Below are positions 1 through 48,958 of a stretch of 64,000 bases of DNA, in pieces. The DNA lies in contig CM059432.1 of NCBI GenBank assembly GCA_030390025.1, positions 59,522,001 to 59,586,000 on the forward strand, given 5' to 3'. The position numbers were made by a program, and so were the translations under genes. How positions within the stretch are numbered: position 1 is the stretch's first letter; the number at the start of each line of letters is the position of its first letter. The DNA is from Squalus acanthias (taxonomy: Eukaryota). Under the pieces are notes generated by a model that was not told the origin of the DNA, did no database searches, and saw nothing but the letters and a program-made list of their open reading frames with translations.

Positions 1-1290
1 TCTGCTTTCAATCATCAGCAAAGTGATGGAAGATGTCGTCGACAGTGCTATCAAGCGGCACTTACTCACCAATAACCTGCTCACTGATGCTCAGTTTGGG
101 TTCCGCCAGGACCACTCGGCTCCAGGCCTCATTACAGCCTTGGTCCAAACATGGACAAAAGAGCTGAATTCCAGAGGTGAGGTGAGAGTGACTGCCCTTG
201 ACTTCAAGGCAGCATTTGACCGAGTGTGGCATCAAGGAGCCCTAGTAAAATTGAAGTCAATGGGAATCAGGGGCTGGAGTCATATCCAGCACAAAGGAAG
301 ATGGTTGTGGTTGTTGGAGGTCAATCATCTCAGCCCCAGGACATCGCTGCAGGAGTTCCTCAGGGCAGTGTCCTAGGCCCAACCATCTTCAGCTGCTTCA
401 TCAATGACCTTCCCGGCATCATAAGTGGCGATGTTCGCTGATGATTGCACAGTATTCAATTCTATTCACAACTCCTCAGATAATGAAGCAGTCCATGTCC
501 ACATGCAGCAAGACCTGGATGACATTCAGACTTGGGCTGATGTGTGGCGCAAATTTTACTTGCCACTTAAGTGCCAGGCAATTACTATCTTCAACAAGAG
601 AGAGTCTAACCACCGCCCCTTGACATGCAACAGTATTACCATCACCAAATCCTCCACCATCAACATCTGGGGGGCCACCATTGACCAGAAACTTAACTGG
701 ACCAGCCACGTAAATACTGGCCTCAAGAGCAGGTCAGAGGCTGGGTATTCTGCGGCGAGTGTCTCACCTCCTGACTCCCCAAAGCCTTTCCACCATCTAC
801 AAGGCACAAGTCAGGAGTGTGATGGAATACTCTCCACTTGCCTGGATGAGTGCAGTTCCAACAACACTCAAGAAGCTCGACACCATCAAGCCCGCCTGAT
901 TGGCACCCCATCCACCACCTTAAACATTCACTTCCTCCACCACTGGCGCACCGTGGCTGCAGTGTGTACCATCTACAAGATGCACTGCAGCAACTCTCCA
1001 AGGCTTCTTCAACAGCACCTCCCAAACCAGCGACCCCCACCACCTCGAAGGACAAGGGCAGCAGGCGCATGGGAACACCATCACCTCCAAGTTCCCCTCC
1101 AAGTCACGCATCACCCTGACTTGGAAATATATAGGCGTTCCTTCATCGTCGTTGGGTCAAAATCCTGGAACTCCCTACCTAACAGCACTATGGGAGTACC
1201 TTCACCACCACCTTCTCAAGGGCAATTAGGGATGGGCAATAAATGCTGGCCTTCCAGTGACGCCCACATCCCAGGAATGCATAAAAAAAA
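1..1290 (+). mobile_element. Degenerate HER1-type (CR1-clade) LINE, RT to 3' tail
   Basis: Frameshifted RT fragments (LDFKAAFDRVWH, GVPQGSVLGP, FADD) followed by the tail aagggcaattagggatgggcaataaatgctggcc...cccacatccca and an A-run. Confidence 0.9.
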
Positions 1291-1353
1291 AGCTGTGAGC
1301 AGTTTGATGAAAATGAAATGTGCAATAGAAACCAGGAGAAAGTAGTGAGTAAA

Positions 1354-1762: not shown

Positions 1763-1787
1763 AGACATGGTCACCCTCTGGTGGCAA
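1763..1787 (-). promoter_or_regulatory. Candidate CTCF site 2
   Basis: Minus strand reads GCCACCAGAGGGTGA; same orientation as site 1 and 22/25 identical to it. Confidence 0.5.
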
Positions 1788-2820: not shown

Positions 2821-2904
2821 AGCACTTGCAGCACATTGACATATCGTTGTCAAAGTTTCCAACATTGCAAGTCCCAGATGTGAAATTTTCAATCAAGTGT
2901 AACT

Positions 2905-3236
2905 TTTTTTTTATTTGTTCATGAGATATGGGCATCATTGGTAATGCCAGCATTTATTGCCCATCCCTACTTGCCCTTGAGAAGGTGGTGGTGAACCGCT
3001 GCAGTCTGTGTGCTCCTGTTGTAGCAGTTTGGTGCAACTCAGAGGGCAGTTAAGAGTCAACCACAATGCTGTGGGTCTGGAGTCACATATAGGCCAGACC
3101 AGGTAAGGACGGCAGATTTCCTTCCCTAAAGGACATTAGTGAACCAAATGGGTTTTTACAACAGTCCGGTAGTTTCATGGTCACCATTACTGATACTTGA
3201 TTACTAGTCCAGAAACATAACCACTGTGCTACCATT
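2905..3236 (-). mobile_element. HE1-type SINE (V-SINE), internally deleted
   Basis: Shares its core with 27740-28135 and its 3' tail (gggatgggcaataaatgctggc) with the HER1-type LINEs. Confidence 0.8.
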
Positions 3237-3344
3237 CCAGGCTTTATGACTTCACATCATAACAAGCACCTTTAAAAGTAGCAAGCTGTGTTTGGCTCAG
3301 GAATTGATTCCGACAGCCTCCAGATCCACCTATCAGCCTTGGGT

Positions 3345-3462: not shown

Positions 3463-3917
3463 CTAAATGATCTGATTGGTTGATACTGACAGCCACCGAT
3501 TCCAATGGAAAAAGTTGATTTTTCTTGCAAATCACGAATGCAGAATAGAAATATTAACAGTCAGCTTGCAACTGGAGGGGTATAAAAATTGTTTAAACTG
3601 CCCCCCTCCCCTTCTTTAAAGAATCTCAGGTAACGTAAATGAATGTGATTATTCAGGACATTAATTTATATGACTACTTATTTTTCGCGTTATTTTAATT
3701 TTTTTACATTTCATTCATGAAATCACTCATCCATCTCACACGTCAGACTGCCATAGCTGGTATGATACACTGCCTTTAATGCTAGGTCTTCACTCACTAA
3801 GAATGCAAAAATCTCTTTACACAGCAATGACATTGATATTGACACTAGCCTGTCAAAGTACAGTTATGATGTTCAAGGTGTTTTTGTTTCCTCATATAAA
3901 GAATAGGCCTTTACATG

Positions 3918-5312
3918 CCTGCATAGCTCCAGAACTAGCCACGTATCTAGCCAAGGTGTTCCAGTACTGCTACAACACTGGCATCTATCCGACAATGTGG
4001 AAAACTGCCCAGATATGTCCTGTCCACAAAAAGCAGGACAAATCCAATCCGGCCCCATCAGTCTACTCTCAATCATCAGCAAAGTGATGGAAGGTGTCAT
4101 CGACAGTGCTATCAAGCGGCAAACATGGACAAAGGAGCTGAATTCCAAAGGTGAGGTGAGAGTGACTGTCCTTGACAGCAAAGCAGCATTTGACCGAGTA
4201 TGGCATCAAGGAGCCCTAGTAAAATTGAAGTCAATGGGAATCGGGGGGAAAACTCTCCACTGGCTGGAGTCATACCTAGCACAAAGGAAGATGGTTGTGG
4301 TGGTTAAAGGTCAATCATCACAGCCCCAGGACATCGCTACAGGAGTTGCTCAGAGCAATGTCCTAGGCCCAACCATCTTCAGCTGCTTCATCAATGACCT
4401 TCCCTCCAACATAAGGTCAGAAATGGGGCTGTTCGCTGATGACTGCGCAGTGTTCAGTGCCATTCACAACTCCTCAGATAATGAAGCAGTCCATGCCCGC
4501 ATGCAACAAGACCTGGATGACGTTCAGGCTTGGGCTGATAAGTGGCAGGTAACATTCGCGCCACAGATGTGCCAGGCAATGACTATTTCCAACAAGTGAG
4601 AGTCTAACCACCGCCCCTTGACATTCAATGGCATTACCATCGCCGAATCCCCCACCATCAACATTCTGGGGGTCACCATTGACCAGAAACTAAACTGGAC
4701 CAGCCACATAAATACTGTGGCAACAAGAGCAGGTCAGAGGCTAGGTATTCTGCGGCGAGTGTCTCACCTCCTGTCTCCCCAAAGCCTTTCCACCATCTAC
4801 AAGGCACAAGTAAGGAGTGTTATGGAATACTCTCCACTTGCCTGGATGAGTGCAGCTCCAACAACACTCAAGAAGCTCGACACCATCCAGGGCAAAGCAG
4901 CCCACTTGATTGGCACCCCATCCACCACCTTAAACATTCACTCCCTCCACTACCGGCATACCGTGGCTGCAGTGTGTATCATCTACAAGATGCAGTATAG
5001 CAACTCGGCAAGGCTTCTTCGGCAGCATCTCCCAAACCCGTGACCTCTTCCACGTAGAAGGACAAGGGCAGCAGGCGCATGGGAACACCACCACCTACAA
5101 GTTCCCCTCCAAGTCACTTAGAAGTATATCACTGATCCTTCATTGTCTCTGGGTCAAAATCCTGGAACTCCCTCTCCAACAGCACTGTGGGAGAACCTTC
5201 ACCACACGGACTGCAGCGGTTCAAGAAGGCAGCTCACCACCACCTTCTCAAGGGCAATTAGGGATGGGCAATAAATGCTGGCCTTGCCAGCGACGCCCAC
5301 ATCCCATAAAAA
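3918..5312 (+). mobile_element. 5'-truncated HER1-type LINE
   Basis: ORFs 3997-4599 and 4618-5043 encode RT (LDSKAAFDRVWH, FADD) and the C-terminus; family 3' tail plus A-run. Confidence 0.9.
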
Positions 5313-6051: not shown

Positions 6052-6330
6052 ACCATGGCAGTTTGAGAATTTAAATTCAGTTTTAAAAATCTGAAAATAA
6101 AAAGTTGGTATCAGTAACCATGAAGCTGTCGGATTGTCATAAAAAAAAAATTGGTTCACTAATATTCTTCAGGGAAGCAAACCTGCTGTCCTTACCCGAT
6201 ATGGTCTATATCTAACAGTCCGACACCAATGTGGCTGACCCTTAACTGCCCTCTTATATTGCCTAGCATGCCACTCAGTTGATGGGCAATAAATGCTGGC
6301 CTAGCCAACGTCAACATCCCGAGAATTAAT
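6052..6330 (+). mobile_element. HE1-type SINE fragment
   Basis: Aligns with 27810-28120 (gaatttaaattcag...ggttcactaat...cttaactgccctc...gatgggcaataaatgctggc). Confidence 0.75.
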
Positions 6331-19132: not shown

Positions 19133-22100
19133 TTTTTTTTTATTCGTTCCTGGGATCTGGGTGTCACTGACAAGACCAGTATTTATTGCCAATCCCTAGT
19201 TGCCCTTGAGAAGGTGGTGGTGAGCCGCCTTCTTGAACCACTGCATTCCGTGTGGTGCAGGGATTCCCATAGTGCTGTTAGAGAGGGAGTTCCAGCGACA
19301 ATGAAGGAATGGCGAAATATTTCCAAGTCAGGATGGTGTGTGACTTGGAGGGGAACTTGGAGGTGGTGGTGTTCCCATGCGCCTGCTGCCCTTGTTCTTC
19401 TAGGTGGTAGAGGTCGTGGGTTTGGGAAGTGCTGTTGAAGAAGTCTTGGCGAGTTGCTGCAGTGCATCTTGTAGATGGTACACACTGCAGCCACAGTGCG
19501 TCGGTGGTGGAGGGAGTGAATGTTTAAGGTGGTGGATGGGGTGCCAGTCAAGCAGGCTGCTTTGTCCTGGATGGTGTCGAGCTTCTTGAATGTTGTTGGA
19601 GCTGCACTCATCCAGGCAAGTGGAGAGTATTCCATGATACTCCTGACTTGTGCCTTGTAGATGGTTGAAAGGCTTTGGGGAGTCAGTAGGTGAGTCCATC
19701 GCTGCAGAATACCCAGCCTCTGACCTGCTCTTGTAGCCACAGTATTTACGTGGCTGGGCCAGTTAAATGTCTGGTCAATGGTAACCCCAGGGCATGGACT
19801 GCTTCATTATCTGAGGAGTTGTGAATGGAACTAAACACTGTGCAATCATCAGCGAACATCCCCACTTCTGACCTTATGATGGAGGGAAGGTCATTGATGA
19901 AGCAGCTGTAGATGGTTGGGCCTAGGACACCGCCCTGAGGAAATCCTGTGGCGATGTCCTGGGGCTGTGATGATTGACCTCCAACCACCACAACCATCTT
20001 GAGAGTAAACTGGCAAGAAACATTAAAACAGCTAGTGAGAGCTTCTAGAAGTATATAAAAAGGAAGAGGGTAGCTAAAGTAAACGTTGGTCCCTTAGAGG
20101 ATGAGACTGGGGAATTAATAATGGGGAACGGGGAAATGGCAGACACTCTGAACAAATATTTTGTATCTGTCTTCACGGTAGAAGACACTAACAACATCCC
20201 AATAATGGATAATCAAGGGGCCACAGGGAGGGGGGGATCTAAAGACAATCACTATCACTAAGGAAATAGTACTTGGTAAAATAATGGGACTAAAAGATGA
20301 CAAGTCCCCTGGACCAGATGGCCTGCATCCCAGGGTCTTAAAAGACATGGCTGCAGAGATAGTGGATGCATTGGTTGCAATATACCAAAATTCCCTGGAC
20401 TCTGGAGAGGTGCCAGCGGATTGGAAAACCGCAAATGTAACACCCTTATTTAAGAAAGGAGGGAGACAGAAAGCAGGAAACTATAGACCAGTTAGCCTAA
20501 CATCTGTCATTGGGAAAATGCTGGAGTCCTTCATTAAGGAAGCAGTAGCAGGGCATTTAGAAAATCATAATGCAGTCAGGTAGAGTCAGCATGGTTTTAT
20601 GAAAGGGAAATCATGTTTAACAAATTTGCTGGAGTTCTTTGAGGAGGTAACGAGCAGGGTGGACAAAGGTGAATCAGTGGATGTGGTGTATTTGGATTTC
20701 CAGAAGGCATTCGATAAGGTGCCAGATAAAAGGTTACTGCATAAGATAAGAGCTCACGGAATTGGGGGTAATATATTAGCATGGATAGAGAATTGGCTAA
20801 CTAACAGAAAGCAGAGAGTTAGGATAATGGGTCATTTTCAGGGTGGCAAACGGTAACTAGTGGGGTGCCACAGGGATCGGTGCTGGAGCCTCAACTATTT
20901 ACAATCTACATTAATGACTTGGATGAAGGGACCGAGTGTAATGTAGCCAAGTTTGCAGATGATACAAAGATGGGTGGGAAAGCAAGTTGTGCAGAGGACT
21001 CAAAGAACATGAAAAGGGATATAGACAGGCTAAGTGAGTGGGCAAACATTTGGCAGATGGAGTATAATGTAGGAAAGTGCAAGGTTATACATTTTGGCAG
21101 GAAAAATAAAAAAGCAAATTATTTAAATGGAGAGAGATTACAAAATGCTACAGTTCAGAGGGACCTGGAGGTCCTTGTGCATGATACACAAAAAGTTAGC
21201 ATGCAGGTACAGCAAGTAATCAAAAAGGCAAATGGAATGTTGGCCTTTATTTCAAAGGGGTTGGAGTATAAAAGCAGGGAAGTCCTGCTACAACTGTACA
21301 GGGTATTGGTGAGACCACACCTTGAGTACTGCATACAGTTTTGGTCTTCTTATTTAAAGAAGGATATACTTGCATTGGAAGCAGTTCAGGGACGATTCAC
21401 TCGGTTAATTCCAGAGATGAAGGGGTTGACTTATGAGGAAAGGTTGAGCAGGCTGGGCCTATACTCATTGGAATTTAGAAGAATGGGAGGTGATCTTATT
21501 GAAACATAAGATTCTGAGTGGGCTTGACAGGGTAGATGCAGAGAGGATGTTTCCTCTCGTGGGGAAATCTAGAACGCAGAGGCACAGTTTTAGAATAAAG
21601 GGTCGCCCTTTTAGAACTGAGATGAGGAGGAATTTCTTCTCTCAGAGGTTTGTAAATCTGTGGAATTGTCTGCCCCAGAGAGCTGTGGAGGCTGGGTCAT
21701 TAAATACATTTAAGGTGGAGATAGACAGATTTTTGCAAAATAAGGGAATGAAGGGTTATGGGGAGCGGGCGGGGAAGTGGCTTTGAGCCCAAGATCAGCC
21801 ATGATCTTATTGAATGGCGGAGCAGGCTCAAGGGGCCAAGTGGCCTATTCCTGCTCCTATTTCTTATGTTCTTATGTTCCTTTGTGCTAGGTATGACTCC
21901 AGCCAGTGGAGAGTTTTCCCCCCGATTCCCATTGACTTCAGTTTGACTAGGGCTCCTTGATGCCACACTCAGTCAAATGCTGCCTTGATGTCAAGGGCAG
22001 TCACTCTCACCTCACCTCTGGAATTCAGTTCCTTTTGTCCATGTTTGGACCAAGGCTGTAATGAGGTTGGGAGCCGAGTGGTCCTGGCAGAACCCAAACT

Positions 22101-22651
22101 GAGCATTGGTGTGCAGGTTATTGGTGAGTAAGTGGCGCTTGATACCACTGTCAACGACACCTTCCATCACTTTGCTGCTGATTGAGAGTAGACTGATGGG
22201 GCAGAAATTGTCTGGATTGGATTTGTCCTACTTTTTGTGGACAGGACATACCCAGGCAGTTTTCCACATTGTCGGATAGATGCTAGTGTTGTAGCTGTAC
22301 TGGAACAGCTTGGCTAGAGGCACGGCTAGTTCTGGAGCACAAGTCTTCAGCACGACAGCCGGGATGCTGTCGGGGCCCATAGCCTTTGCTGTATCCAGTG
22401 CGCTCAGTCGTTTCTTGATATCACGTGGAGCAAATCGAATTGGCTGAAGACTGGCTTCTGTGATGGTGGGGACCTCAGGAGGAGGCCAAGAAGTATTATC
22501 CACTCGGCACTTCTGGCTGAAGATGATTGGAAACGCTTCAGCCTTGTCTTTTGCACTCACGTGCTGGGCTCCATCATTATTGAGGATGGGGTTATTCATG
22601 GAGCCTCCTCCTCCCGTTAGTTGTTTAATGGTCCACCACCATTCACCATGG
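19133..22651 (-). mobile_element. HER1-type LINE interrupted by a CR1
   Basis: ORFs 19183-19740, 19746-19997 and 22228-22677; the two halves rejoin as acaaccatctt|cctttgtgctagg across 20001-21877. Confidence 0.9.
20001..21877 (+). mobile_element. 5'-truncated CR1 nested in the HER1-type LINE
   Basis: RT ORFs between 20284 and 21786, and a ttcttatgttcttatgt tail. Confidence 0.9.
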
Positions 22652-25149: not shown

Positions 25150-27738
25150 ATAGAACATAAGAACATAAGAAATAGGAGCAGGAGTAGGCCAATCGGCCCC
25201 TCGAGCCTGCTCCGCCATTCAATAAGATCATGGCTGATCTGATCCTAACCGCCAATCTACTATCTATCACAGAACCATCTCCTGCATCTAACAGAATTGC
25301 ACACACGAAATAGGAGCAGAATCAGGCTACACAGTCCCTGGGCCCGCTCCACTACCCACAGGGCCATGACCGATCCGAACCTAGACTCATGTCCAAATTC
25401 CTGCCCGCTCCCCGTAACCCTTAATGCCCTTTACTTCTAGGAAACTGTCTATTTCTGTTTTAAATTTAATTAATGTTGTAGCTTCTACAGCTTTTTGTGG
25501 CAGCATATTCCATGGACCTACCACCCTCTGAGTGAAGTAGTTCCTCCTCATCTCAGTTTTGAAAGAGCAGCCCCTTATTCTAAGACTATGTCCCCTAGTT
25601 CTCGTCTCACCCGTCATCGGGAACATCCTCCCCGCATCCACCCGATCCAACCCCTTCACAATCTTATATGTTTCAATAAGATCGCCTCTCATTCTTCTGA
25701 ACTCCAATGAGTAGAGTCCCAATCTACCCAACCTCTCCTCATATGACCACCCCCTCATCCCCGGGATTAACCGAGTGAACCTTTTTTGCACTGCCTCGAG
25801 AGCAAGGATGTCTTTCCTTAAATAAGGACACCAAAACTGTATGCAGTATTCCAGGTGCGGTCTCACCAATACCTTGTACAACTGAAGCAATACCTCCCTA
25901 TTTTTATATTCTATCCCCCTAGCAATGAAAGCCAACATTCCATTTGCCTTCTTAATCACTTGCTGCACCTGCATACTAACCTTTTGAGTTTCGTGCACCA
26001 GGACCCCCAGATCCCTTTGCACTTCAGTACTCTCCAGTTTCTTGCCATTAAGATAATAAATTGCTCTAGGATTTTTCCTGCCAAAGTGCATCACCTCACA
26101 CTTTCCAGTGTTGTATTCCATCTGCCAAATCTCTGCCCACTTACTTAGCCTGTCTATGTCCCCTTGCAGGTTTTTTATGTCCTCCTCACTCACTACTTTC
26201 CCTCCCATCTTTGTATCATCTGCAAATTTTGATATGTTACACTTGGTCCCTTCCTCCAAATCGTTAATATAGATTGTGAAGAGTTGGGGACCCAGCACTG
26301 ACCCCTGTGGAACACCACTAGTTACTGATTGCCAGTCTGAGAATGAACCATTTATCCCAACTCTTTGCTTTCTGTTAGATAGCCAATCCTCTATCCATGC
26401 CAGAATATTACCCCCAATCCCGTGATTTTTTACCTTAAGCAATAATCTTTTGTGTGGCACCTTGTCAAATGCCTTTTGGAAGTCTAAATACACTACGTCC
26501 ACTGGTTCCCCTTTATCCACTCTATATGTTACTTCCTCAAAGAACTCCAGCAAATTTGTCAAACATGACTTCCCCTTCGTAAAACCATGCTGACTTTGTC
26601 CTATTAAATTATGATTATCCAAATGTCCTGTTACTGTTTCCTTAATAATGGACTCCAAAATTTTACCTACCACAGATGTTAGGCTAACCGGTCTATAGTT
26701 ACCAGCCTTCTGTCTACTGCCCTTTTTAAATAAGGGTGTTACATTAGCAGTTTTCCAGTCTGCCGGGACCTTAGCGGAATCCAGGGAGTTTTGAAAAATT
26801 ATTACCAATGCATCTACAATCCCTACCGCCACTTCCTTCAAGACTCTAGGATGTAAGCCATCAGGTCCAGGTGATTTATCCGCCTTGAGTCCCATTATTT
26901 TACCGAGTACCACTTCCTTAGTGATTTTGATCGTGTTTAACTCCTCTCCCCCTATAGCCCCCTGTTTGTCCAGTGTTGGGATATTCTTAGTGTCCTCTAC
27001 TGTAAAGACTGATACAAAATATTCATTCAGTGTTTTTGCCATCTCCATATTTCCCACCATTAATTTCCCGGTCTCATCCTCTAAGGGACCAACATTTACT
27101 TTAGCCACCCTTTTTCTTTTTATATAACTATAAAAACTCTTACTATCTGTTTTTATATTTTTTGCTAATTTACTTTCATAATCTATCTTCCCTTTCTTAA
27201 TCAATCTTTTTGTTATTTTTTGCTGCCTTTTAAAGTTTTCCCAATCCTCTGTCCTCCCACTAGATTTCGCTACCTTATATGCCCTTGTTTTTAGTCGAAT
27301 ACTATCCTTAATTTCTTTACTTAGCCACGGATGACTGTCCTTTCTTTTACACCCTTTTCTTTTCAGTGGAATATATATTTTTTGGAAGTTGTAAAATAAC
27401 TCCTTGAATGTACACCACTGATCATGTGTCGTCTTACCCTTTAATCTATTTTCCCAATCCACTCTACTCAATTCCGCTCGCATACCTTCATAGTCTCCTT
27501 TATTCAAGCTTAGCACGCTTGTTTGAGATCCAACCTTCTCACCCTCTAATTGAATATGGAATTCAACCATGTTATGGTCACTCATTCCAAGGGGATCCTT
27601 TACTAGGACATTTTTAATTAATCCTGTCTCGTTACACAGGACCAGATCTAAGGTTGCTTGCCCCCTGGTCGGTTCAGTTACATACTGCTCAAGAAACCCA
27701 TCCCTAATACACTCAATGAACTCATCCTCAAGGCAGCC
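25150..27738 (-). mobile_element. Young 5'-truncated CR1 LINE with uninterrupted ORF2
   Basis: ORF 25387-27585 (732 aa, no stops) from the endonuclease end (SDHN) through RT to the C-terminus; (ttcttatg)n tail. Confidence 0.95.
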
Positions 27739-27739
27739 C

Positions 27740-28135
27740 TGTTGTGGTTGTTACTGGACTAGTAATCCTGGGGCCTGGACTAATGATCCGAAGGTGTGAG
27801 TTCAAAATCCGACCATGGCAGCTGGGGAATTTAAATTCAGTTAATTAAATAAATCTGGAATTAAAAAGCTAGTATCAGTAATGATGACCATGAAACTGCC
27901 AGATTGTCGTAAAAACCCATCTGGTTCACTAATGTCCTTTAGGGAAGGAAATCTGCTGTCCTTACCTGGTCTGGCCTATATGTAACTCCAGCCCCACAGC
28001 AATGTGGTTGACTCATAACTGCCCTCTGTGGTTCAAGGCGGCGGCTCACCACCTCCTTCTCAAGGGCAATTAGGGATGGGCAATAAATGCCAGCCTTGCC
28101 AGCGATGCCCACATTCCATGAATGAATAAAAAAAA
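27740..28135 (+). mobile_element. HE1-type SINE, nearly complete
   Basis: tRNA-like head with B box (gagttcaaaatcc), central core, HER1-type tail ending tgaatgaataaaaaaaa. Confidence 0.88.
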
Positions 28136-29982: not shown

Positions 29983-30724
29983 GGCCCAGAAATTAAAGAC
30001 GGAGCCTTCCTGCGGGGGTAAGGCTTCCCCGCGATATCTCACTGCGCGCCTGCCTTTTCCTTCCGAGCTCGCACGAACTTGAGTTTCTAGACAGCAGCTG
30101 TGCAGTGTGTGCGTATCCCACAGACGCAGTTAATTCGTGCGAGCTGTGGGATCACGTGATTCAGTTAGAGCCAATGGCAGCACACCATCTTTCATTCATA
30201 GTTTTCACAGCAAGGGCTGTGAAAGCTATGAATACTATACCCCCCCAAAAGAACAGCTAAACCTCAATTAAATTTTTTTTAAAAACCATCACATTAATAA
30301 AATAAGTATAGTTAAATCAATTAACCACTTTAAACAAAAAATTAAATGTTTGAAAAAATTTAAAATCTTTTTAAAAGTTATAAAAATAAACTTACCTTTC
30401 TTTAAAGTCTCTAAAAAAGATATACCTGTTGAAAAAAATTCAAAATACTTAATTAACTACTTACCTTGTTAAAAGAGGGTCTTACGCCTCCTTTCTTTAT
30501 GTGCAAAATCTTCCATGCTTACCTGCACGTTCAAAGCACTAAGTGCACTGCGTGCGCGCAGCCTGTAGCGCGCACGCGGTTCACTTAGGAACCGCCCCCT
30601 TTTGAAATCACCAAGTGCCGGTTTTCAGCGCATGCGCAGTGCATGCAGAAAACCGACAATTGGAGACAGAATACGCGAGAGTACACAGTGCGTACTCTCG
30701 CGCAGTGAGACTAATTTTTGGGCC
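29983..30724. mobile_element. Harbinger-type MITE, copy 1
   Basis: TIR ggcccagaaatta / taatttttgggcc, 3-bp TSD aat/aat, colinear with 44444-45196. Confidence 0.85.
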
Positions 30725-31374
30725 AATGTACTTGTCACAATGTCTGCTTTCTCGCACAGATATTTATTTAGTTCTATAAAACGTGTGGATATTTGGTATA
30801 TGTGCAATAAACATAATTAAACATTCCATGTGTACATTAAAGCCCCCGGTCTGCCAACAGTATATGAGACACTGGAATATGATAAGGCTTGTTGGTGAAG
30901 AATGCTGATAAAAGCGGTGTGTGTTCAGTACAAGTAGTTTGTTTCTCTGGGTGGTTTTCTGGTAAAAGTATCATTTCAATTTTATTGAAACTTACTGAAC
31001 AATTTGCAGATTTTGCACATTTTAGGGTAAAGGTTCTATTGCTTACAACTATATCCGCTGCTTGCTCTCAATGTTCAATACAAGTGTTTTCCTTTCACAG
31101 TGAAACAGGCTCCTGTGCCTGCTTTCACTAACTGTAAAATTTTCGAACTTAATTGCTGGGCAGTTGCTTGGCAATTAGCCCAAATTTGCGCCAGCAATGA
31201 GTATTTCCCTGTCGGTGCGGATCATCTGTCAAGGCGTACCTTGTTAGATTGCAAGTTCAGGATTTAGCAAAATCTCGAACTTGCGATCTATTCCAAAGAC
31301 GGTATGATGGCGTACTCTCAAGAGTATGCTGTCATACCCACTGCAAAATCTGCCCTAACATGATTAGGCAGAGT

Positions 31375-32671
31375 CACCAATAACCTGCTCACTGATGCCC
31401 AGTTTGGATTCCACCAAGACCACTCGGCTCCCGACCTCATTACAGCCTTGGTCCAAACATGGACAAAGGAGCTGAATTCCAGAGGTGAGGTGAGAGTGGC
31501 TGCCCTTGACATCAAGGCAGCATTTGACCGAGTGTGGCATCAAGGAGCCCTAGTCAAACTGAAGTCAATGGGAATCAGGGGGAAAACGCTCCACTGGCTG
31601 GAGTCATACTTAGCACAAAGGAAGATGGTTGTGGTGGTTGAAGGTCAATCATCACAGCCCCAGGACATCGCTGCAGGAGTTCCGCAGGGCAGTGTCCTAG
31701 GCCCAAACATCTTCAGCTGCTTCATCAATGACCTTCCCTCCAACATAAGTCAGAAATGGGGATGTTCGCTGATGACTGCACAGTGTTCAGCGCCATTCAC
31801 AACTCCACAGATAATGAAGCAATCCATGCCCGCATGCAACAAGACCTGGACGACGTTCAGGCTTGGGCTGATAATTAGCAGGTAACATTCGCGCCACAGA
31901 AGTGCCAGGCAATGACTATCTCCAACAAGCGAGAGTCTAACCACCTCCCCTTGACATTCAATGGCATTACCATCGCTGAATCCCCCACAATCAACATCCT
32001 GGGGGTCACCATTAACCAGAAACTTAACTGGACCAGCCACATAAATACTGTGGCAACAAGAGCAGGTCAGAGGCTAGGTATTCTGCGGCGAGTGTCTCAC
32101 CTCCTGACTCCCCAAAGCCTTTCCACCATCTACAAGGCACAAGTAAGGAGTGTGATGGAATACTCTCCACTTGCCTGGATGAGTGCAGCTCCAACAACAC
32201 TCAAGAAGCTCGACACCATCCAGGACAAAGCAACCCGCTTGATTAGCACCCCATCCACCACCTTAAACATTCACTCCCTCCACCACTGGCGCACCGTGGC
32301 TGCAGTGTGTACCATCTACAAGATGCACTGCAGCAACTCGCCAAGGCCTCTTTGGCAGCACCTCCCAAACCCGCGGCCTCTTTCACCTAGAAGGACAAGG
32401 GCAGCAGGCGCATGTGAACACCACCACCTCCAAGTTCCCCTCCAAGTCACACACCATCCTGACTTAGAAGTATATCGCCGATCCTTCATCGTCGCTGGGT
32501 CAAAATCCTGGAACTCCCTCCCTAACAGCACTGTGGAATTACCATCACCACACGGACTGCAGCGGTTCAAGAAGGCGGCTCACCACCACCTTCTCAAGGG
32601 CAACTAGGGATGGGCAATAAATGCTGGCCTTGCCAGCAGTACCCTGATCCCATAAACGAATAAAAAAAAAA
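31375..32671 (+). mobile_element. 5'-truncated HER1-type LINE
   Basis: ORFs 31448-31885 and 31912-32607, family tail and A-run. Confidence 0.92.
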
Positions 32672-33700
32672 CCTGGTTTTATGAAAGGGAAATCGTGTTT
32701 AACAAATTTATTACAGTTTTTGAGGATGTAACTAGCAGGGTAGATAAAGGGGTACCAATGGATGTAGTATATTTGGATTTCCAAAAGGCATTCGATAAGG
32801 TGCTACGCAAGATAAAGGCTCATGGAGTTGGGGGTAATATATTAGCATGGAGAGAGGATTGGTTAATGGACAGAAAACAGAGAGTAGGGATAAACGGGTC
32901 ATTTTCTAGTGGGTAGGCTGTAACTAGTGAGGTGCCGCAAGGATCAGTGCTTGGGCCTCAGTTATTTACAATCTATATTAATGAATTAGATGAAGGGACC
33001 AAGTGCAATGTATCCAAGTTTGCTGACGATACAAAGCTAGGTGGGAAACTAAGCTGTGAGGAGAACACAAAGAGCCTGCAAAGGGAGAGAGACAGGTTAA
33101 GTGAGTGGGCAATAAGCTCTCCCAATTTTGGCACAAGTCCCCAGGTGTTGGTGAGGGGAACTTTGCAAGGTCGACTGAGCTGGGTGTGCCGTTGTCGTGT
33201 CCGTAGCCGTTGCCGAGGTTGATGCTGGGTGGTCCATCTGGTTTTATTCTTATTATTGTTTTTCGTAGCGGTTTGTTACAACTGAGTGGTTTGCTAGGCC
33301 ATTTCAGAGGACAGTTAAGAGTCAACCACATTGCTGTGGGTCTGGAGTCACATATAGGCCAGACCAGGTAAGGACAGCAGATTTCCTTCCCTAAAGGACA
33401 TTCGTGAACCAGATGGGTTTTTACAACAATCCAATAGTTTCATGGTCACCATTACTGATACTAGCTTTTTATTCCAGATTTATTTTTAATTAACTGAATT
33501 TAAATTCCCCAGCTGCTGTGGATTTGAACTCACGTCTCTGGATCATTAGTCCAGGCCTCTGGATTACTAGTCCAGTAACATAACCACTATGCTACCATTC
33601 TCGATGTTGAGGCCGAAGATCAGCCATGATCTTATTGAATGGCGGAGCAGGCTCGAGGGGCCGAATGGCCTACCCATGCTCCTAATTCTTATGTTCTTAT
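32672..33700 (+). mobile_element. CR1 fragment with an internal deletion at an insertion site
   Basis: RT at 32672-33112 and tail at 33605-33700; the intervening ORF2 C-terminus is replaced by an opposite-strand element. Confidence 0.8.
33113..33598 (-). mobile_element. HE1-type SINE head/core fused to a LINE endonuclease N-terminus
   Basis: A box tagcatagtgg (33584-33594), B box gttcaaatcc (33520-33529), HE1 core, then RPCKVPLTNTWGLVPKLGEL instead of the SINE tail. Confidence 0.75.
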
Positions 33701-33719
33701 GCTAAAACATGTCCAACCA

Positions 33720-34240
33720 ATGCAGAGCAATCAACAAAGCCAACAGAATGTTCAACTACAGGCCAAAACACTTGAGTACAAGTCGTAGGAGGCAGTGATC
33801 AAACTTTATAGTGCTCTGGTTAGACCATACTTTGAATACTATATCCAGGTTTAGTCATCAAGAAACAAGACACATTCAAGCGCTGGAGGTGGTGCAGAGA
33901 AGAGTCATAAAGCTGATCCTTAAATGTCAGGGGTCTGAGTTATGAGGAAATACTGAAGAAACTTGTGAGGCGATGTTATAGTGGTGCATACGTTTGTTAA
34001 GAATATAATAGAAGTTAACCCAGACTATTACTGGGGTAGAACATGGGGACGCAGGTACAAACTAATAAAAAGGTGATTTTAGGACTGATAAAGAAATTCT
34101 TCTTCACACAAAGTGATCAACATGTTGAAAAATGTCCAGGAACAGTAGTGGAGCAAGAAGCCCTGAAATCATTTAAGAAGCAATGGATGCCGTGGATGGA
34201 TGCATTAAATGGGCTGAATGGTCTTCCTCATCCCTAATTA
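33720..34240 (+). mobile_element. Old CR1 3' remnant
   Basis: Decayed LYSALVRPYFEY and FFTQ motifs. Confidence 0.6.
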
Positions 34241-36440: not shown

Positions 36441-37120
36441 GTTAAAGGGGGGCGGAAGTAGAGAGGTGAGGAAAGAACAAAAGGAAAAATCTATCACAGG
36501 TGGAAGGCAGGAGTGATTAAATGACACAAGGGATGATGGTGCAAGGTCAAAGGGGGTGGTAATGGGACAAGTAAAGAAACAAAAGATGGGTCGAGAGGAA
36601 CTGTAAATGGCAACAGCAGAATCATTCCCAACACCTGCTGTCTTGAAAAAAGGGAGCTGTGGTTATGATCTGAAATTGTTGAACTCAATGTTGAGTCCAG
36701 AAGGTTGCAAAGTGGTTAATCGATCAGTGATGTGCTGTTCCCTGAGCTTCCGTTGAGCTTCATTAGAACAGTGTAGGAGGCTGAGGACAGAGAGGTCAGA
36801 GTGGGAGTGCGGCGGAGAATTAAAATGGCAAGCTGTGGGAAAGGGAGCAAGTGTTGGGGGTGATGGAAGAGTGGAACAGGGTGTTGCAGAGGGAACGGTC
36901 CCTTTGGAATGCTGAAAGGGGAGGGGAAGATGTGTTTGGTGGTGGCATCGCGTTGGAGGTGGCGGATAATGAGTTGTTGAATGTAGATGCTGGCGGGGTC
37001 GAAGGTGAGGACAAGGGAAACCCTATCGTGATTCTGAGAGAGGGGAAAAGGGGTGAGAGCAGAAGTGCGGGAAATGGGACGGACACAGTCGAAGACATTG
37101 TCAACCACGGTGGAGGGGAA

Positions 37121-39515
37121 TCATAGAAATTTACGGCACAGAAGGTGGCCATTCGGCCCATCGTGTCTGTGCTGGGCGAAAAAGAGCTATCCAGCCTGAT
37201 CCTACTTTCCAGTTCTTGGTCCGTAGCCCTGTAGGATACGGCACTTCAAGCGCATATCCAAGTACTTTTTAAATGCAATGATGGTTTTAGCCTCTACCAC
37301 CCTTTCAGGCAGTGAGTTCCAGACCCCCACCACCTTCTGGGTGAAAAAGGTTCTCCTCAACTCCCCTCTAATCCTTCTACCAATTACTTTAAATCTATGT
37401 CCCTGGTTACTGACCTCGCTGCTAAGGGAAATAGGGCCTTCCTATCCACTCTATCTAGGCCCCTCATAATTTTATACATCTCAATTAAGTCTCCCTTCAG
37501 CCTCCTCTGTTCCAAAGAAAACAACCCCAGCCTATCCAATCTTCCCTCATAGCTAAAATTCTTCAGTCCTGGCAACATCCTCGTAAATCTTCCCTGTACT
37601 CTCTCTAGTGCAGTCACATCTTTCCTGTAATGTGGTGACCAGAACTGTACGCAGTACTCTAGCTGTGGCCTAAATAATGTTGTATACAGTTCAAGCATAA
37701 CCTCCCTGCTCTTATATTCTATTCCTCAGCTAATAAAGAAAAGTATCCCATCTGCCTGTCCTGCTACTTTCAGGGATCTGTGGACATGCACTCCAAGGTC
37801 CCTCTTTTCCTCTACACTTCTCAGTATCCTACCATTTATTGTGTATTCCCTTGCCTTGTTAGCCCTCCCCAAATGCATTACCTCACACTTCTCTGGATTG
37901 AATTCCATTTGCCACTTTTCTGCCCACCTGACCCGTCCATTGATATCTTCCTGCAGTCTACAGCTTTCTTCCTCACTATCAACCACACGGCCAATTTTTG
38001 TATCATCTGCAAACTTCTTAATCATGCCCCCTACATTGACGTCTAAATCATTGATTTATAACGCAAAAAGCAAGGGACCCAGTACTGAGCCCTGCAGAAC
38101 AGCCTTCCAGCCACAAAAACATTCGGCGACCATTAACCTTTCCTTCCTGCCACAATCAATTTTGGATCCAACTTGCCACTTTCCCTTGGATCCCATGGGC
38201 TTTTACTTTTTTGACCAACCTGCCATGTGGGACCTTGTCAAAGGCCTTGCTAAAATCCATGGAGACTGCCCTCATTGACCATCCTTGTTACCTCCTCAAA
38301 AATTTCAATCAAGTTAGACAGACATGACCTTCCCTTAACAAATCCCTGCTGACTGTCCTTGATTAATCCGTGAATTTCTAAATGACGCTTAATACTGTCC
38401 CTCAGAATTTTTTCCAATAATTTGCCCACCACCGAGGTTAGGTTGACTGGCCTGTAATTATTCGGTCTATCCCTTTCTCCCTTTTTAAACAATGGTACTT
38501 TAGCAGTCCTCTAGCACCACACCTGTAGCCAGAGAAGATTGAAAATGATGGTCAGAGCCTCCGCTATTTCCTGCCTTGCTTCTCTTAACAACCTGGGATA
38601 CATTTCATCCGGGCCTGGCGATTTATCTACTTTCAAAGATGCTAAACCTATTAATACTTCCTCTTTCACTATGTTTATCTCAATTAATATTTCACACTCC
38701 TCCTCAACTACAATGTCTGCATCGTCCCTCTCTTTTCTGAAGACAGACGCAAAGTATTCATTACGAACCATATCCACATCTTCCGCCTCAACACACAGGT
38801 TACCTTTTTGGTCTCTAATAGGCCCTACTCTTTCTTTAGCTATCCTCTTGCTTTTTATGCATTTCATCGAATCATAGAAATTTACAGCACAGAAGGAGGC
38901 CATTCGGCCCATTGTATATGTAGCGGCCGAAAAAGAGCTATCCAGACTAATCTCACTTTCCAGCACTTGGTCCGTAGCCCTGAAGCATGCAGCACTTCAA
39001 GTGCATATCCAAGTACTTTTTAAATGTGATTGGGGTTTCTGCCTCTACCATCCTTTCAGGCAGTGAGTTATAGACCCCCATCACCCTCTGGGTGAAAAAA
39101 GTTCTCCTCAACTCCCCTCTAATCCTTCTACTAATTACTTTAAATCTATGCCCCCTGGTTATTGTCCTCTCTGCTAAAGGAAATAGGTCCTTCCTATCCA
39201 CTCTATCTAAGCCCCTCATAATTTTATACACCTCAATCAAGTCTCCCTTCAGCCTCCTCTGTTCCAAAGAAAATAACCCCAGCCTATCCAATCTTTCCTC
39301 ATAGCTAAAAATTCTCCAGTCCTGGCAACATCCTTGTAAATCTCCTCTGTACCCTCTCTCATGCAATCACATCCTTCCTGTAATGTGGTCACCAGAACTG
39401 TACGCAGTTTTTGGGTTTTCCTTGATTTTACTTGCCAATATTTTTTCATTCCCTCTCTTTACTTTCCTAATTTCCTTTTCTAATTTCACCCTGTACTTTC
39501 TATACTCCTCTAGGC
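37121..39515 (-). mobile_element. CR1 LINE with a same-family 3' fragment (38870-39405) nested in it
   Basis: RT ORFs between 37384 and 38966; two near-identical 3' ends at 37121 and 38870 (gaatcatagaaattta). Confidence 0.88.
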
Positions 39516-42046: not shown

Positions 42047-43656
42047 ATTGTATTTTTCATATGCAAATATACTGTTTACAAGACTTTATACAGACTCCTT
42101 GCTTGGTCCTGAAACAATCAATTCAAGGTAAATGGCTCCACATACAAATAACTGAAGTAGATGATTGCTATCATCTACTTCAGTTCAGGAAACTATCACA
42201 ACCTTGATGAGCTATTTCAAATGCTATATCCACTTTATTGATTTCCTGTATCCTGATTTTGAATTTCAAAGGATATGAAAGATATATCTCAGGCTGCATG
42301 CTCCCAACTCTTCAGTTCTTCTGAGCCCAAGAAAGAGGTCAAAACCTCAGATATAAGTTAGGGATGATGGTCCAATTTAATATTAAGAGTTAACTGAAAG
42401 AAAGAACATATTTGTATTTATACAGCGCCTTTCATGAGCTCAAGATGTCCCAAAGCTCTTCACAGACAATGATGTGCCATGTCTTATTTTGTACCCCGGA
42501 GGTAGAAGTCAATATATTCTGTTTTCTATAGCATTTATTCTTATGCTATTCAAAGATTAGACAGAAGAGGCCTTGCATCAGATCCAGTAAGCTAAATATA
42601 GTACAAGTGTTTGTCTTCAGTCTCTGGGCAATAGTACATCACCAAATATTATGCATATAAAGTCAAACTTTGGTTCATAGGGAGCAAGGGCTCATGATGG
42701 GAGTGTTCTTTGACAGTGCACATCAAAGAAATAGCTGGTAAAACCTAAAAATGTAAGCAGTATCCATTCATCACTAGCCCTGCAACTTGCCAGAAATCCC
42801 TCAGCTAGAGTTGCAGTGCTCCTATATCAAGTACTTGCTCTCCTTTCATAACTAGCACAGTGTACACACTTCTATCTGTGTACTTGTACTCAAATAAGAA
42901 GACTGTCAGAGAACCTTTGAAAACTCAACTGGTAAGAGTGATGGAGTGTATTGAAATGTTCACTAAAGTCATTCTTAGGTACCATCTTCCATGGTTCTGA
43001 CTGTGCTTGATGCATTGGCAGTTAATCTCGAAGGTGGCAGGTGTGGTGAGGGACAACCACTTGTTTTCCAAAACAAGCGTATCTCAATATTCCTCTGCCA
43101 ACCTGCACAAAGCTCTTTTGTTTAGGTACTTGTGGTAAGGTTTAGACCATTAATAGGATGAGCTGCAATTGAAAACACAGCATTCATTTTGACATAATAG
43201 AATTCTATTTGACAAGCTTGGAGTGTTGAGTGTAGGGAAAATGCCCCATAATTTGCCTAAAATGTGTTCCCTAAATGGACTTTCAACTTAAAGATGTCCA
43301 AGAAAATAATCAATAGGGAAACTGAATGCTGGGAAATCAAAACTAACTAAAATTGAGAAGGCATGTAGAAGTGAACAGAACATTCCTTACTAGTGCTAAG
43401 ATGGCCAACATTAAGTATTGTGCTCAAGAATAGTTCATTGGTGGGATGTAAATATGTCATGCCTTATCAGGTCCTGTATAGGACCCTTTGTTAAAGAAAA
43501 CTGTTTGTGGGGGAGGGGGGGGGGGGAGGGCAGTGTCAGTATCGTCTGCTATGCATGCCTTGTTAACTTGATGCGGAGATGCCGGTGTTGGACTGGAGTG
43601 GACAAAAGTGAGAAGTCGCACAACACCAGGTTATAATCCAACAGCTTTATTTGAAA

Positions 43657-43693
43657 TCACAAGCTTTCGGAGCGCTGCTCCTTCGTCAGGTGA
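43657..43693 (-). ncRNA. Minimal hammerhead ribozyme motif, left arm
   Basis: tcac-CTGACGA-a-ggagc-agc-gctcc-GAAA-gc-TT-gtga. Confidence 0.75.
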
Positions 43694-43881
43694 AGTGAAG
43701 AAATACATATGGGCACAGCATATATAGTCAGAGAACAATGCCAGACGACTACAGTTAATCTTTCTAACTGCCCTTTACAGGTCTATCACAGGTGTGATAA
43801 AGGGCAGTTAGAAAGATTAACTGTAGTCGTCTGGCAGTGTTCTCTGACTATATATGCTGTGCCCATATGTATTTCTTCACT

Positions 43882-43918
43882 TCACCTGATGAAGGAGCAG
43901 TGCTCCGAAAGCTTGTGA
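43882..43918 (+). ncRNA. Minimal hammerhead ribozyme motif, right arm
   Basis: tcac-CTGATGA-a-ggagc-agt-gctcc-GAAA-gc-TT-gtga. Confidence 0.75.
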
Positions 43919-44096
43919 TTTCAAATAAAGCTGTTGGACTATAACCTGGCGTTGTGCGACTTCTCACTTTTGTTAACTTGAGATCAGGAACCCTTGCAAG
44001 GTTGTTAGAAATGACTGACACGTTAGCCAGTTTGTCACTTCAGGTATATAAAAGAGGGTGCTAGGCACACTCCTTCGTAGATTCTCTCACTCCCTT

Positions 44097-44443: not shown

Positions 44444-45196
44444 GGCCCAGAAATTAGACTTCGATGGTTGCCGCGGGGGTAAGGATCCGGCGCGATCTTA
44501 CCTACCGCGCCTGCCTTTATGGTTCGGGCCCACACGAACTTCTGGTCCTGGGCCTCTCCCTGGTGCCGGCGCGCAGTGTGTGCGTGTCCCAGAGGCGCAG
44601 TTAGTTCGATGCGACCTCTGGGATCACGTGGGCCAGTTAGAGCCAATGGCAGCACACCATCTTTCATTCATAGTTTTGACAGGAGAACTGTCAAAACTAT
44701 GAATACAACTTGCCCCCAAAAGAACAGCTAAACCTCAATTAATTTTTTTAAAAAACCCATCACATTAATAAAATAACTATAGTTAAATAAATTAACCACT
44801 TTAAACAAAAATTTAAATTTTTGAAAAGATTTAAATTCTTTTTAAAAGTTATAAAAATAAACTTACCTTTCTTTAAAGTCTCTAAAAACGATAAACCTGT
44901 TGAAAAAAATTTTAAATACTTAATTAACTACTTACCTTGTTAAAAGGGGGTCTTACGCCTCCTTTTTTCATGTGTAAAATCTTCCATACTTACCCTCGTG
45001 TTCAAACCGGGAAAAAAAACCTAAGTGTGCTGCGTGCGCACAGCCTGTAGTGCGCACGTGGTTCACTTAGGAACCGCCCCCTTCGCAATATCGGAAGTGC
45101 CGGTTTCCCACGCATGCGTAGTGCATGCAGGAAACCGGCACTTCGGGACCGAATACGGGTGAGTACACAGTGCGTACTCGGCCGAATTTCTGGGCC
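44444..45196. mobile_element. Harbinger-type MITE, copy 2
   Basis: TIR ggcccagaaatt / aatttctgggcc, TSD aat/aat, colinear with 29983-30724. Confidence 0.88.
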
Positions 45197-47707: not shown

Positions 47708-47984
47708 AATTTGTTTCTGGGATTTAGAGGTCGCTGGCAAGGCCAGCAATTATTGCCCATCCCTAATTCCCCTCGAGAAGGTGGTGGTGGTGAGTTGCCT
47801 TCTTGAACCGCTGCAGTCCGTGTGGTGAAGGTACACCCATAGTGCTGTGAGGGAGGTAGTTCCAGGATTTTGACGCAGCAACAATGAAGGAACGCCGACA
47901 TATTTCCAAGTCAGGATGGTGCGTGACTTGGAGGGGAACTTGGAGGTGATGGTGTTCCCATGCGCCTGCTGCCCTTGTCCTTCT
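47708..47984 (-). mobile_element. HER1-type LINE 3' fragment nested in CR1
   Basis: Reverse-complement match to 5055-5305; host CR1 rejoins as cagctattt...aatctata. Confidence 0.85.
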
Positions 47985-48958
47985 AATCTATAATAATGAA
48001 TTAGATGAAAGGACCGAGTGTAATGTATCCAAGTTTGCTGACCATACAAAGCTAGGTGAGAAAATAAGGAGGACACAAAGAGCCTGCAAAGGGATCTAGA
48101 CAGGTTAAGTGAGTGGGCAATACGGTGGCAGATGGAGTATAATGTGGGGAAGTGGGAGGTTGTTCACTTTGGTGGGAAGAATAGAAAAACTTTTTTTTTT
48201 TTTTAAATGGTGAGAAACTGTTAAATGTTGTGTTCAGAGGGATTTGGGTGTACTTGTACATGAAACACAGAAAGTTAACATGCAGGTACAGCAAGCAATT
48301 AGGAAGGCAAATGGCATGTTGGTCTTTATTGCAAAGGGGTTGGAGTACAAGAGTAAGGAAGTCTTACTACAATTGTACAGGGCTTGTGTGAGACCACACC
48401 TGGAGTACTGCGTACACAGTTTTGGTCTCTGTATGTGAGGAAGGATATACTTGCCTTACAGAGGGTGCAACTAGATTGATTCTTGGGCTGAGAAGATTGC
48501 TCTATGAGGAGAGATGGAGTAGAATGGGCCTATACTGTCTGGAGTTTAGAAAAATGAGAGGTGATCTCATTAAAGTATAAAGGATTTGGAGAGGGTTCAA
48601 AATGGTAGATGCTGAGAGGCTGTTTCCCCTGGCTGGAGAGTCTAGAACCAAGAGGCATAGTCTCAGGATAAAGATCAGCCATTTAGGACGAAGAGGAGAA
48701 ATTTCTTCATTCAATGGGTTGTGAATCTTTGGAATTCTCTATCCCAAATGGCTGTGGATGCTCAGTCGTTAGTATATACAAGGCTGAGATCGATATATTT
48801 TTGGACTCTAAGGGAATCAAGGGACATAGGATCGGGCAGGAAAGTGGAGCGGAGGTCAAAGATCAGCCAGGAAAGTGGAGCGGAGGTCAAAGATCAGCCA
48901 TGATCTTATTGAATGGCGGAGCAGTCTCGAAAGGCCGTATGGCCTACTCCTGCTCCTA

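What the first reader, a model, noticed from the sequence alone, without database searches (positions are those of the whole stretch)
33113..33598. tRNA-headed SINE body running straight into a LINE endonuclease
Seen: on the minus strand, a head with A and B boxes and the same core as the HE1-type SINEs at 2905, 6052 and 27740. Where those copies switch to the HER1-type tail, this one continues ~180 bp into a frame reading RPCKVPLTNTWGLVPKLGEL, which resembles the first AP-endonuclease motif (N-I-x-G-L). Established: HE1 SINEs share their 3' tail with HER1 LINEs. Inference: the partner LINE may use the SINE head as its own 5' end, lack ORF1 and possibly be Pol III-driven. The SINE would then be an internal-deletion derivative of the LINE, or the LINE captured a SINE as its promoter.
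Basis: partly seen in the sequence, partly recalled or inferred. Interest (0 to 1): 0.75.

Follow-up and report, generated by a model that had tools for sequence, protein, structure and literature searches.

The report
Shark LINE start with SINE head
This is the cut-off front end of an abundant shark jumping gene that codes for its own copying enzymes yet begins with the tRNA-like promoter head normally found only on short non-coding SINEs, so it may be read by RNA polymerase III, which the sequence fits but does not prove.

Summary
The structure is real; the family names are wrong. 33600-33115 (minus) holds A and B boxes, a body shared with three SINE-like copies (77-93%), about 130 further bases and a frame resembling endonuclease motif I. 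It is cut off inside a CR1 copy. The three SINEs end in the tail of the LINE at 31374-32670, not in the window's CR1-type tail; no V, Deu, CORE or UCON3 motif was found in them. That LINE's reverse transcriptase groups apart from CR1, with single-ORF-sized relatives and a moth element (CR1-Zenon-like, inferred). The junction is not unique: about 120 contigs in each of two organisms cover the endonuclease start, and one spans body to motif. Most carry the letters that give N-I-x-G-L, as in those relatives. I could not bridge motif I to the rest of the ORF. The sense strand has no TTTT in 2,291 bases (P 0.04-0.08), which fits Pol III weakly. The scan already noted what appears to be this family many times elsewhere in this genome. 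New variant of a known kind; Pol III use untested.

The parts
33521..33600 (-). tRNA-like head; 5' end at about 33600-33602; A box 33594-33584, B box 33529-33521; two similar hairpins between the boxes
   Evidence: same start as the copy at 3237
33305..33520 (-). body shared by the LINE 5' end and the three SINE-like copies
33174..33304 (-). rest of the 5' leader; SINE copies carry it only in part (to 33279, or 33283-33266)
   Evidence: 126 contigs in each of two runs differ from the window at 33210
33115..33173 (-). start of the endonuclease frame (motif I-like), cut off at 33115
32670..33114 (+). host CR1 copy, reverse-transcriptase part; about 760 nt of CR1 missing beyond it
   Evidence: matches 47385-48122
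33606..33701 (+). host CR1 3' tail
31374..32670 (+). 5'-truncated copy of the tail-donor LINE (RT, 3' tail, poly-A), inserted in the same CR1 copy in the opposite orientation to the finding
   Evidence: joints 31375-32670 show the CR1 without it
19133..22650 (-). longest copy of the tail-donor LINE in the window (linker, RT, tail), split by a CR1 inserted at 20001-21873
1..1319 (+). tail-donor LINE copy, cut by the window start
3893..5310 (+). tail-donor LINE copy
47709..47985 (-). short 3' fragment of the tail-donor LINE inside another CR1
27744..28135 (+). SINE-like copy: 33587-33305 joined to the tail from 32564
2904..3237 (-). SINE-like copy: head without B box, body, 18 nt like 33283-33266, then tail from about 32549
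6058..6325 (+). SINE-like copy without head: 33516-33279 joined to the tail from 32609

Best explanation
The finding is the surviving 5' 486 bases of a full-length copy of an abundant elasmobranch LINE, the family whose truncated 3' ends lie at five places in the window. The element is most likely single-ORF (endonuclease plus reverse transcriptase) and CR1-Zenon-like. Its 5' leader begins with a tRNA-derived A/B-box head. It inserted near the 3' end of a CR1 copy, and one deletion later removed the rest of it and about 760 nt of the CR1. The matching SINEs are this LINE's head and leader joined to its tail, so they are transcribed from the same head and copied by the same enzyme. SHOWN: shared body, shared tail, several joins, high copy of the endonuclease start in two organisms, endonuclease-linker-RT pieces in shark gene models, no room for ORF1 in this copy. 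INFERRED: that motif I runs on into that ORF, that most full-length copies carry the head, the Zenon name, and the deletion. How it is transcribed is a separate question: I put Pol III from the head at about 0.4, and Pol II (internal promoter or read-through, head vestigial or helper) at about 0.6.
For: 3 of 3 SINE copies join the finding's body to the tail of 31374-32670, each at a different point. Contigs show a further join, 33277 to 32597, in 4 and 11 contigs of two runs; 4 raw reads of a third organism show leader-like letters before 32597. At 33145, 121 and 120 contigs (counted up to 128) carry another letter, 99% and 98% of summed depth; with it and the majority letter at 33157 the motif reads N-I-x-G-L behind a hydrophobic strand. 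With those letters the ten-mer scores 23.2 against a window maximum of 16.2 among 77,758. 5 of 5 relatives in the RT clade that keep motif I have N-I-x-G-L (15 clade rows inspected), whereas 4 of 4 CR1 starts in the window have [NK]-A-[RQ]-S-[IV]. A 318-nt contig of organism D spans 33117-33375 with 45 differences and 59 further letters that are not the window's CR1 (record 16). Shark proteins P0187, P0188 (PF14529, 30.2 bits over a cut-off of 27.4), P0181 and P0182 carry endonuclease or linker pieces together with stretches 62-91% identical to window copies in their best matches. Relatives of 941-1195 aa lie on contigs of 3.4-4.3 kb. No run of four T in 2,291 nt of sense strand, against 29 in 7,292 nt of CR1.
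Against: No sequence I hold bridges the end of the peptide (about residue 41 of relative P0016) to the first shark endonuclease piece (residue 71). Head-to-motif continuity is seen in this one copy only; record 16 lacks the head. The peptide as written is not significant. The majority-letter score uses a profile of five sequences that I chose. The tree is the quick one, with no named reference elements. Short contigs of relatives may be broken, and bivalve CR1-Zenon consensus sequences average 5.2 kb (PMC10294476). The T-run result is marginal (P 0.038 and 0.080), and 26 of the 30 TTTT-free 1,280-nt windows on the plus strand lie outside this family. No in-frame ATG lies between the last stop and the motif in this copy. 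Contig depth is not a copy number.
Confidence: 0.85

Rival explanations
1. Bipartite model: the LINE's true 5' end starts after the head (about 33520). The tRNA head was added only to a deleted, non-autonomous copy, giving the SINE, and this copy is a rare SINE-LINE recombinant through the shared body.
For: This is the published route for RTE and Vingi SINEs (PMC5786205), and Zenon makes head-less internally deleted elements (PMC6740152). Contigs do not link head to motif.
Against: The only LINE 5' end in the window has the head (1 of 1), which is unlikely if such copies are rare. Earlier scan notes report the head on most long copies (not tested here).
Confidence: 0.07
2. One-off chimera: a SINE lying next to an unrelated fragment, with a chance peptide.
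For: The peptide as written ranks only 20th in the window and fails profile searches; 33115-33304 has no second full copy in the window.
Against: More than 100 contigs per run cover 33145-33210 in two organisms, and one spans the junction. The majority letters improve the motif.
Confidence: 0.03
3. One reading: an HE1 V-SINE head on the HER1 (CR1-type) LINE.
For: HE1 and HER1 are a published shark SINE-LINE pair (PMC3747384 table), and the finding touches a CR1 tail at 33606.
Against: That CR1 tail is on the opposite strand and belongs to the host element. The SINE tails match a LINE whose RT is 37% identical to the window's CR1 and lies on another branch. A V-SINE primer motif has no match in any copy. 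I could not see the HE1 or HER1 sequences.
Confidence: 0.04
4. On transcription only: the structure is as in the best explanation, but the coding RNA is made by Pol II, and Pol III makes only the short SINE RNAs.
For: LINEs are described as Pol II transcripts and Pol III products as length-limited (PMC10886601). Pol III RNA lacks a normal cap (established knowledge). The T-run test is marginal.
Against: TT is the only depleted homo-dinucleotide in the family (observed/expected 0.86, against 1.17 in CR1), and TTC outnumbers TTT 18 to 6 in four reading-frame pieces of related copies (the copies are not independent).
Confidence: 0.55

Closest known systems
Zenon (CR1-Zenon) of Lepidoptera and its internally deleted element Persaeus (PMC6740152; parts 2-3 of 5 and passages read)
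   Same: 3.1-3.7 kb elements; the paper notes that lepidopteran CR1 may have a single endonuclease-RT ORF; poly-A tail; repeated birth of 5'+3' deletion derivatives with variable breakpoints. A moth protein (P0041, Loxostege) falls in the same RT clade. CR1-Zenon-like LINEs are reported in whale shark (10.1101/443036, passages).
   Different: Persaeus has no tRNA homology and no Pol III promoter; here both the LINE 5' end and the short copies carry an A/B-box head.
tRNA-SINEs built on bipartite LINEs (Bov-tA/BovB, CoeSINE4, SINE2_Gav, SINE2-1_ACar/Vingi-2; PMC5786205 parts 2-4 of 5, PMC4494074 passages)
   Same: SINE made of a head, the partner's 5' part and the partner's 3' part.
   Different: In those cases the head is added to the deleted copy and the autonomous LINE lacks it; only RTE and Vingi were found to contribute. 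Here the head sits in front of the coding frame.
RTE-1_DAn and relatives (one sentence in PMC5786205)
   Same: An autonomous-type LINE holding a tRNA-like sequence.
   Different: RTE clade; the passage gives neither its position nor a promoter role.
HE1 (V-SINE) and HER1 of sharks and rays (listed in PMC3747384 and PMC4824008; original papers not seen)
   Same: Same animal group; tRNA head; tail shared with a LINE.
   Different: No V-SINE primer motif found; the tail is not the window's CR1-type tail.
SacSINE1 (Deu-SINE) and CmiSINEs (CORE) with L2-2_CM (PMC5499810, parts 1-3 of 6)
   Same: Cartilaginous-fish tRNA-SINEs sharing a tail with a LINE.
   Different: A SacSINE1-like copy with both Deu motifs lies at 50468-50880 and shares neither head, body nor tail with the finding; no CORE motif in the window.

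Membership tests
HE1 / V-SINE | 80-bp V domain in the body | tested here: inconclusive
   A 17-nt motif from a bivalve V-SINE primer (its place in the V domain is recalled) has no match in the finding or the SINE copies at 3 mismatches, and 1 chance-level hit elsewhere.
HE1 / V-SINE | 3' tail shared with HER1 | not testable with these tools
   HER1 sequence not held. The SINE tails do not carry the window's CR1-type tail motif (0 of 3), which by recall is the HER1 type.
SacSINE1 / Deu-SINE | Deu domain | tested here: not met
   Two Deu motifs hit only 50605 and 50643.
CORE-SINE (CmiSINE) or UCON3-SINE | CORE or UCON3 domain | tested here: inconclusive
   One short motif each, 0 matches in the window at 3 mismatches; CORE is very variable.
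tRNA-derived SINE2 head | A and B boxes in a tRNA-like 5' end | tested here: met
   Boxes at 33594 and 33529, 54 nt apart. The Rfam tRNA match is below threshold (18.6 of 29 bits).
Vertebrate CR1 of this window | RT in the same clade; motif I of type N-A-x-S; CR1 tail | tested here: not met
   Separate starred branches in the quick tree; different motif I and tail.
CR1-Zenon | RT groups with named Zenon elements | tested here: inconclusive
   No named Zenon sequence held; a lepidopteran RT lies in the same 34-row clade, SH-aLRT 97.
CR1-Zenon (lepidopteran type) | single APE-RT ORF in about 3.3 kb | tested here: inconclusive
   No room for ORF1 in 451 nt; endonuclease, linker and RT pieces are seen in shark proteins; no full-length copy held.
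Pol III transcription unit | no run of four or more T on the sense strand | tested here: met
   0 in 2,291 nt covered; the endonuclease and part of the linker are not covered. One of the five 3' copies tested has one run.
Pol III transcription unit | transcript starts at the head and depends on Pol III | not testable with these tools
   No shark RNA run was offered; the six RNA rows were metagenomes with shares of 0.04-0.18.

The most novel reading that the evidence does not exclude
An abundant vertebrate LINE is transcribed end to end by RNA polymerase III from a tRNA-derived internal promoter, keeps its coding strand free of terminators, is translated without a cap, and spawns SINEs by simple internal deletion.
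Probability: 0.4. Interest if true: 0.85.

Novelty: new variant of a known kind. Interest (0 to 1): 0.55.

Why it matters
SINE and LINE are separated by promoter type: short non-coding Pol III elements against coding Pol II elements. A high-copy LINE that starts with a SINE head shows a direct route from LINE to SINE in one deletion and gives a named origin for one SINE body, an open question (PMC5786205). If Pol III really makes the coding RNA, it would be a natural protein-coding Pol III transcript of about 3 kb that can be tested in a standard retrotransposition reporter. This copy itself is a dead 486-base remnant; the interest lies in the family, which the scan had already noted on better copies.

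Tried and rejected
No genome was held, so copies could not be collected directly. The 54-aa peptide found nothing among longer proteins (1 candidate, 0 scored) or in the Atlas (top score 0.83, recognition below the useful level). Its only Pfam hit, GPR15L, is below cut-off. DNA pattern scans: viral contigs 0 in three scans; metagenome contigs 0, then 1 chance hit in a bacterial-looking contig with no similarity to the window (L001); prokaryote genomes 0. Related loci in viral contigs: 27 pattern hits, 0 confirmed. Of 4 runs laid (24 listed), X22 gave 0 reads and X21 only 174; most loose ends and joints were not shown. My own first guess that the body was the Deu domain of SacSINE1 was rejected. 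A twin-priming inversion linking 31374-32670 with the finding was considered and dropped, because the inverted piece lies behind the poly-A tail with 440 nt of CR1 between. The careful tree did not finish. Ten paper searches showed no report of a tRNA-headed shark LINE. Repbase, Dfam and most subscription papers are not searched. Supplements of PMC5499810 and PMC3531059, file 1 of PMC4824008 and those of the bioRxiv preprint could not be seen and may hold the consensus. Sequence look-ups in the scan's notes returned nothing, nor did the look-up of nearby notes.

Full report
Setting. No genome was held. The window is cartilaginous-fish DNA by inference: the closest named proteins to its repeats come from Rhincodon, Heterodontus, Heptranchias, Pristiophorus and Mobula.

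Anatomy. On the minus strand the element starts at about 33600, the same start as the copy at 3237. An A box at 33594-33584 and a B box at 33529-33521 are 54 nt apart (box patterns recalled), with two similar hairpins between them. Rfam gives tRNA at 18.6 bits, E 0.56, below threshold; ARAGORN finds none. The body matches 27744-28028 (89.6%), 3213-3039 (92.6%) and 6058-6281 (77.0%). The quoted peptide lies at 33173-33114 in a frame open from 33275, with no in-frame ATG after the last stop. The element ends at 33115. It sits in a plus-strand CR1 copy (32670-33114, tail 33606-33701) that lacks about 760 nt compared with the copy at 48122-48883. One deletion that took the rest of the insert and part of the host explains both ends (inference). 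A 5'-truncated copy of the same LINE family lies 440 nt away in the same CR1 in the opposite orientation; the inverted pair may have favoured the deletion (inference).

Which LINE. All three SINE-like copies end in the tail of the LINE at 31374-32670 (86.8% over 106 nt, 85.4% over 96 nt, 96.3% over 27 nt). That tail motif occurs 8 times in the window, on five LINE and three SINE copies, against 0.03 by chance. The CR1-type tail motif also occurs 8 times, in none of the SINEs. The tail-donor RT is 37% identical to the window's CR1 ORF. In a quick tree of 108 rows (4 window pieces and 104 of 107 database rows; careful search unfinished) it falls in a 34-row clade (SH-aLRT 97) away from CR1. That clade holds a moth protein (P0041) and ORFs of 941-1195 aa on contigs of 3.4-4.3 kb. 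Lepidopteran Zenon elements are 3.1-3.7 kb (PMC6740152, parts 2-3 of 5 and passages); two Heliconius Zenon ORFs span 172-3333 and 590-3517 (PMC4016481, passages); CR1-Zenon-like LINEs are reported in whale shark (10.1101/443036, passages). I therefore call the family CR1-Zenon-like by inference; no named reference was in the tree, and bivalve CR1-Zenon averages 5.2 kb (PMC10294476, passages).

Which SINE. HE1 is listed as a V-SINE with partner HER1 (PMC3747384 and PMC4824008, passages); I did not see either sequence. A V-SINE primer motif has no match in the copies (weak). Deu motifs from a supplement (PMC7245038, passages and supplement 1) hit only a separate element at 50468-50880 whose head matches SacSINE1 as printed in the supplement of PMC5786205. 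CORE and UCON3 motifs have 0 matches. PMC5499810 (parts 1-3 of 6) describes SacSINE1 and CmiSINEs with an L2 tail and, in the parts read, no headed LINE.

Is the junction unique? No. I laid 4 of 24 listed runs on 31300-33720. In X1 (organism A, possibly the window's own species) and X9 (organism D), 121 and 120 contigs carry another letter at 33145, 110 and 114 at 33157, and 126 each at 33210 (counted up to 128). Record 16 of X9 (318 nt) covers 33117-33375 with 45 differences and has 59 more letters that are not the window's CR1. Summed depth at 33145 is about 0.46 and 0.39 million, against 1.0-1.9 million at 31408-31499 in the RT, as 5' truncation would give; the tool warns that this is no copy number. 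X21 gave 174 reads and X22 none.

Is the peptide an endonuclease start? As written it is not significant: i-E 5.3 against a motif-I profile, rank 20 of 77,758 ten-mers, nothing useful. The majority letters change two residues so that the motif reads N-I-x-G-L after a hydrophobic strand; that version scores 23.2 against a window maximum of 16.2. Of 15 clade rows inspected, 5 keep motif I and all 5 read N-I-x-G-L; 4 of 4 CR1 starts in the window read [NK]-A-[RQ]-S-[IV]. Shark gene models tile the rest against relative P0016: P0187 at residues 71-101, P0188 at 132-226 (PF14529 above cut-off), P0181 at 250-570, then window copies at 381-587 and 553-958. About 30 residues between the peptide and P0187 remain unbridged. 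[quoted passage not shown]

SINE origin. The joins differ: 33305 to 32564; a deletion, then 33283-33266 and a short spacer to about 32549; 33279 to 32609; and 33277 to 32597 in 4 and 11 contigs. This resembles Persaeus, which arose from Zenon several times with variable breakpoints but has no tRNA head. Secondary deletions of one longer SINE would give the same picture. Whether the LINE first captured the head from an older SINE cannot be told here. The published model adds the head to the deleted copy, not to the LINE, and found only RTE and Vingi contributing (PMC5786205, parts 2-4 of 5; PMC4494074, passages). [quoted passage not shown]

Pol III. I tested this before reading the scan's notes. 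The sense strand has no run of four T in 2,291 nt (expected 3.4 and 2.1; P 0.038 and 0.080 by mono- and dinucleotide shuffles), against 29 in 7,292 nt of CR1. TT observed/expected is 0.86 against 1.17. One of five 3' copies tested has one run. The test was one of many run counts, and 26 of 30 TTTT-free plus-strand windows lie in two other regions. The result is a necessary condition met, not proof. A Pol III RNA would need cap-independent translation (established knowledge), and PMC10886601 (passages) describes LINEs as Pol II transcripts.

Earlier notes. The scan holds many notes on a 3.3-kb tRNA-headed, single-ORF LINE elsewhere in this genome (83 notes fit the word look-up, 8 shown). They fit my reading by description; look-ups by sequence returned nothing, so identity with this family is inferred. 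They are not independent evidence. Some name Deu-SINEs or L2 elements as closest; my tests point away from Deu and towards a Zenon-like lineage.

Other papers seen only as passages and not decisive: PMC1845163, PMC11481361 (plus supplement search and file 4), PMC5753468, PMC3531059. Ten searches showed no description of this element; Repbase and Dfam were not searchable.

Verdict. A real, family-level structure under the wrong names: new variant of a known kind. Interest 0.55; 0.85 if Pol III transcription (probability about 0.4) is shown.

Noticed in passing
window 50468-50880 (+) and about 2815-2435 (-): SacSINE1-like Deu-SINE copies, with a head, body and tail different from the finding's family.
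   Followed up: partly
window 33331-33115 (-): An ATG in the frame next to the endonuclease frame opens 72 codons up to the cut and overlaps the motif across an A-rich stretch; a one-base frameshift or re-initiation could be how the ORF is entered (idea only).
   Followed up: no
window 33577-33533 (-): The head holds two similar hairpins in tandem, and contigs show a further 40-nt duplication here (joint 33575 to 33536 in 3 and 4 contigs).
   Followed up: partly
window 19133-22650, 31356-33701, 47385-48958: Mutual nesting: a CR1 inside a tail-donor LINE copy, and tail-donor copies inside two CR1 copies, so both families were active over overlapping times.
   Followed up: partly
window 25390-27750 (-): A CR1 ORF2 stretch of 787 codons without a stop, ending next to the SINE copy at 27744.
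   Followed up: no
window 37120-38650 (-), 38860-39400 (-), 59700-64000 (+): A second CR1 subfamily with a different tail variant.
   Followed up: no
window 30012-30697 and 44473-45179; 43597-43978: A 700-nt repeat with internal palindromes, and a 181-nt inverted repeat at 96% with a 20-nt loop; both look like non-autonomous DNA transposons.
   Followed up: no
proteins P0009, P0014, P0180, P0183, P0184, P0186, P0188, P0189, P0190: Public shark and ray gene models with pieces of this LINE built in as exons, probably annotation artefacts.
   Followed up: no
window 10201-12700 and 60301-62800 (+): Long stretches without a run of four T that do not belong to the tail-donor family.
   Followed up: no
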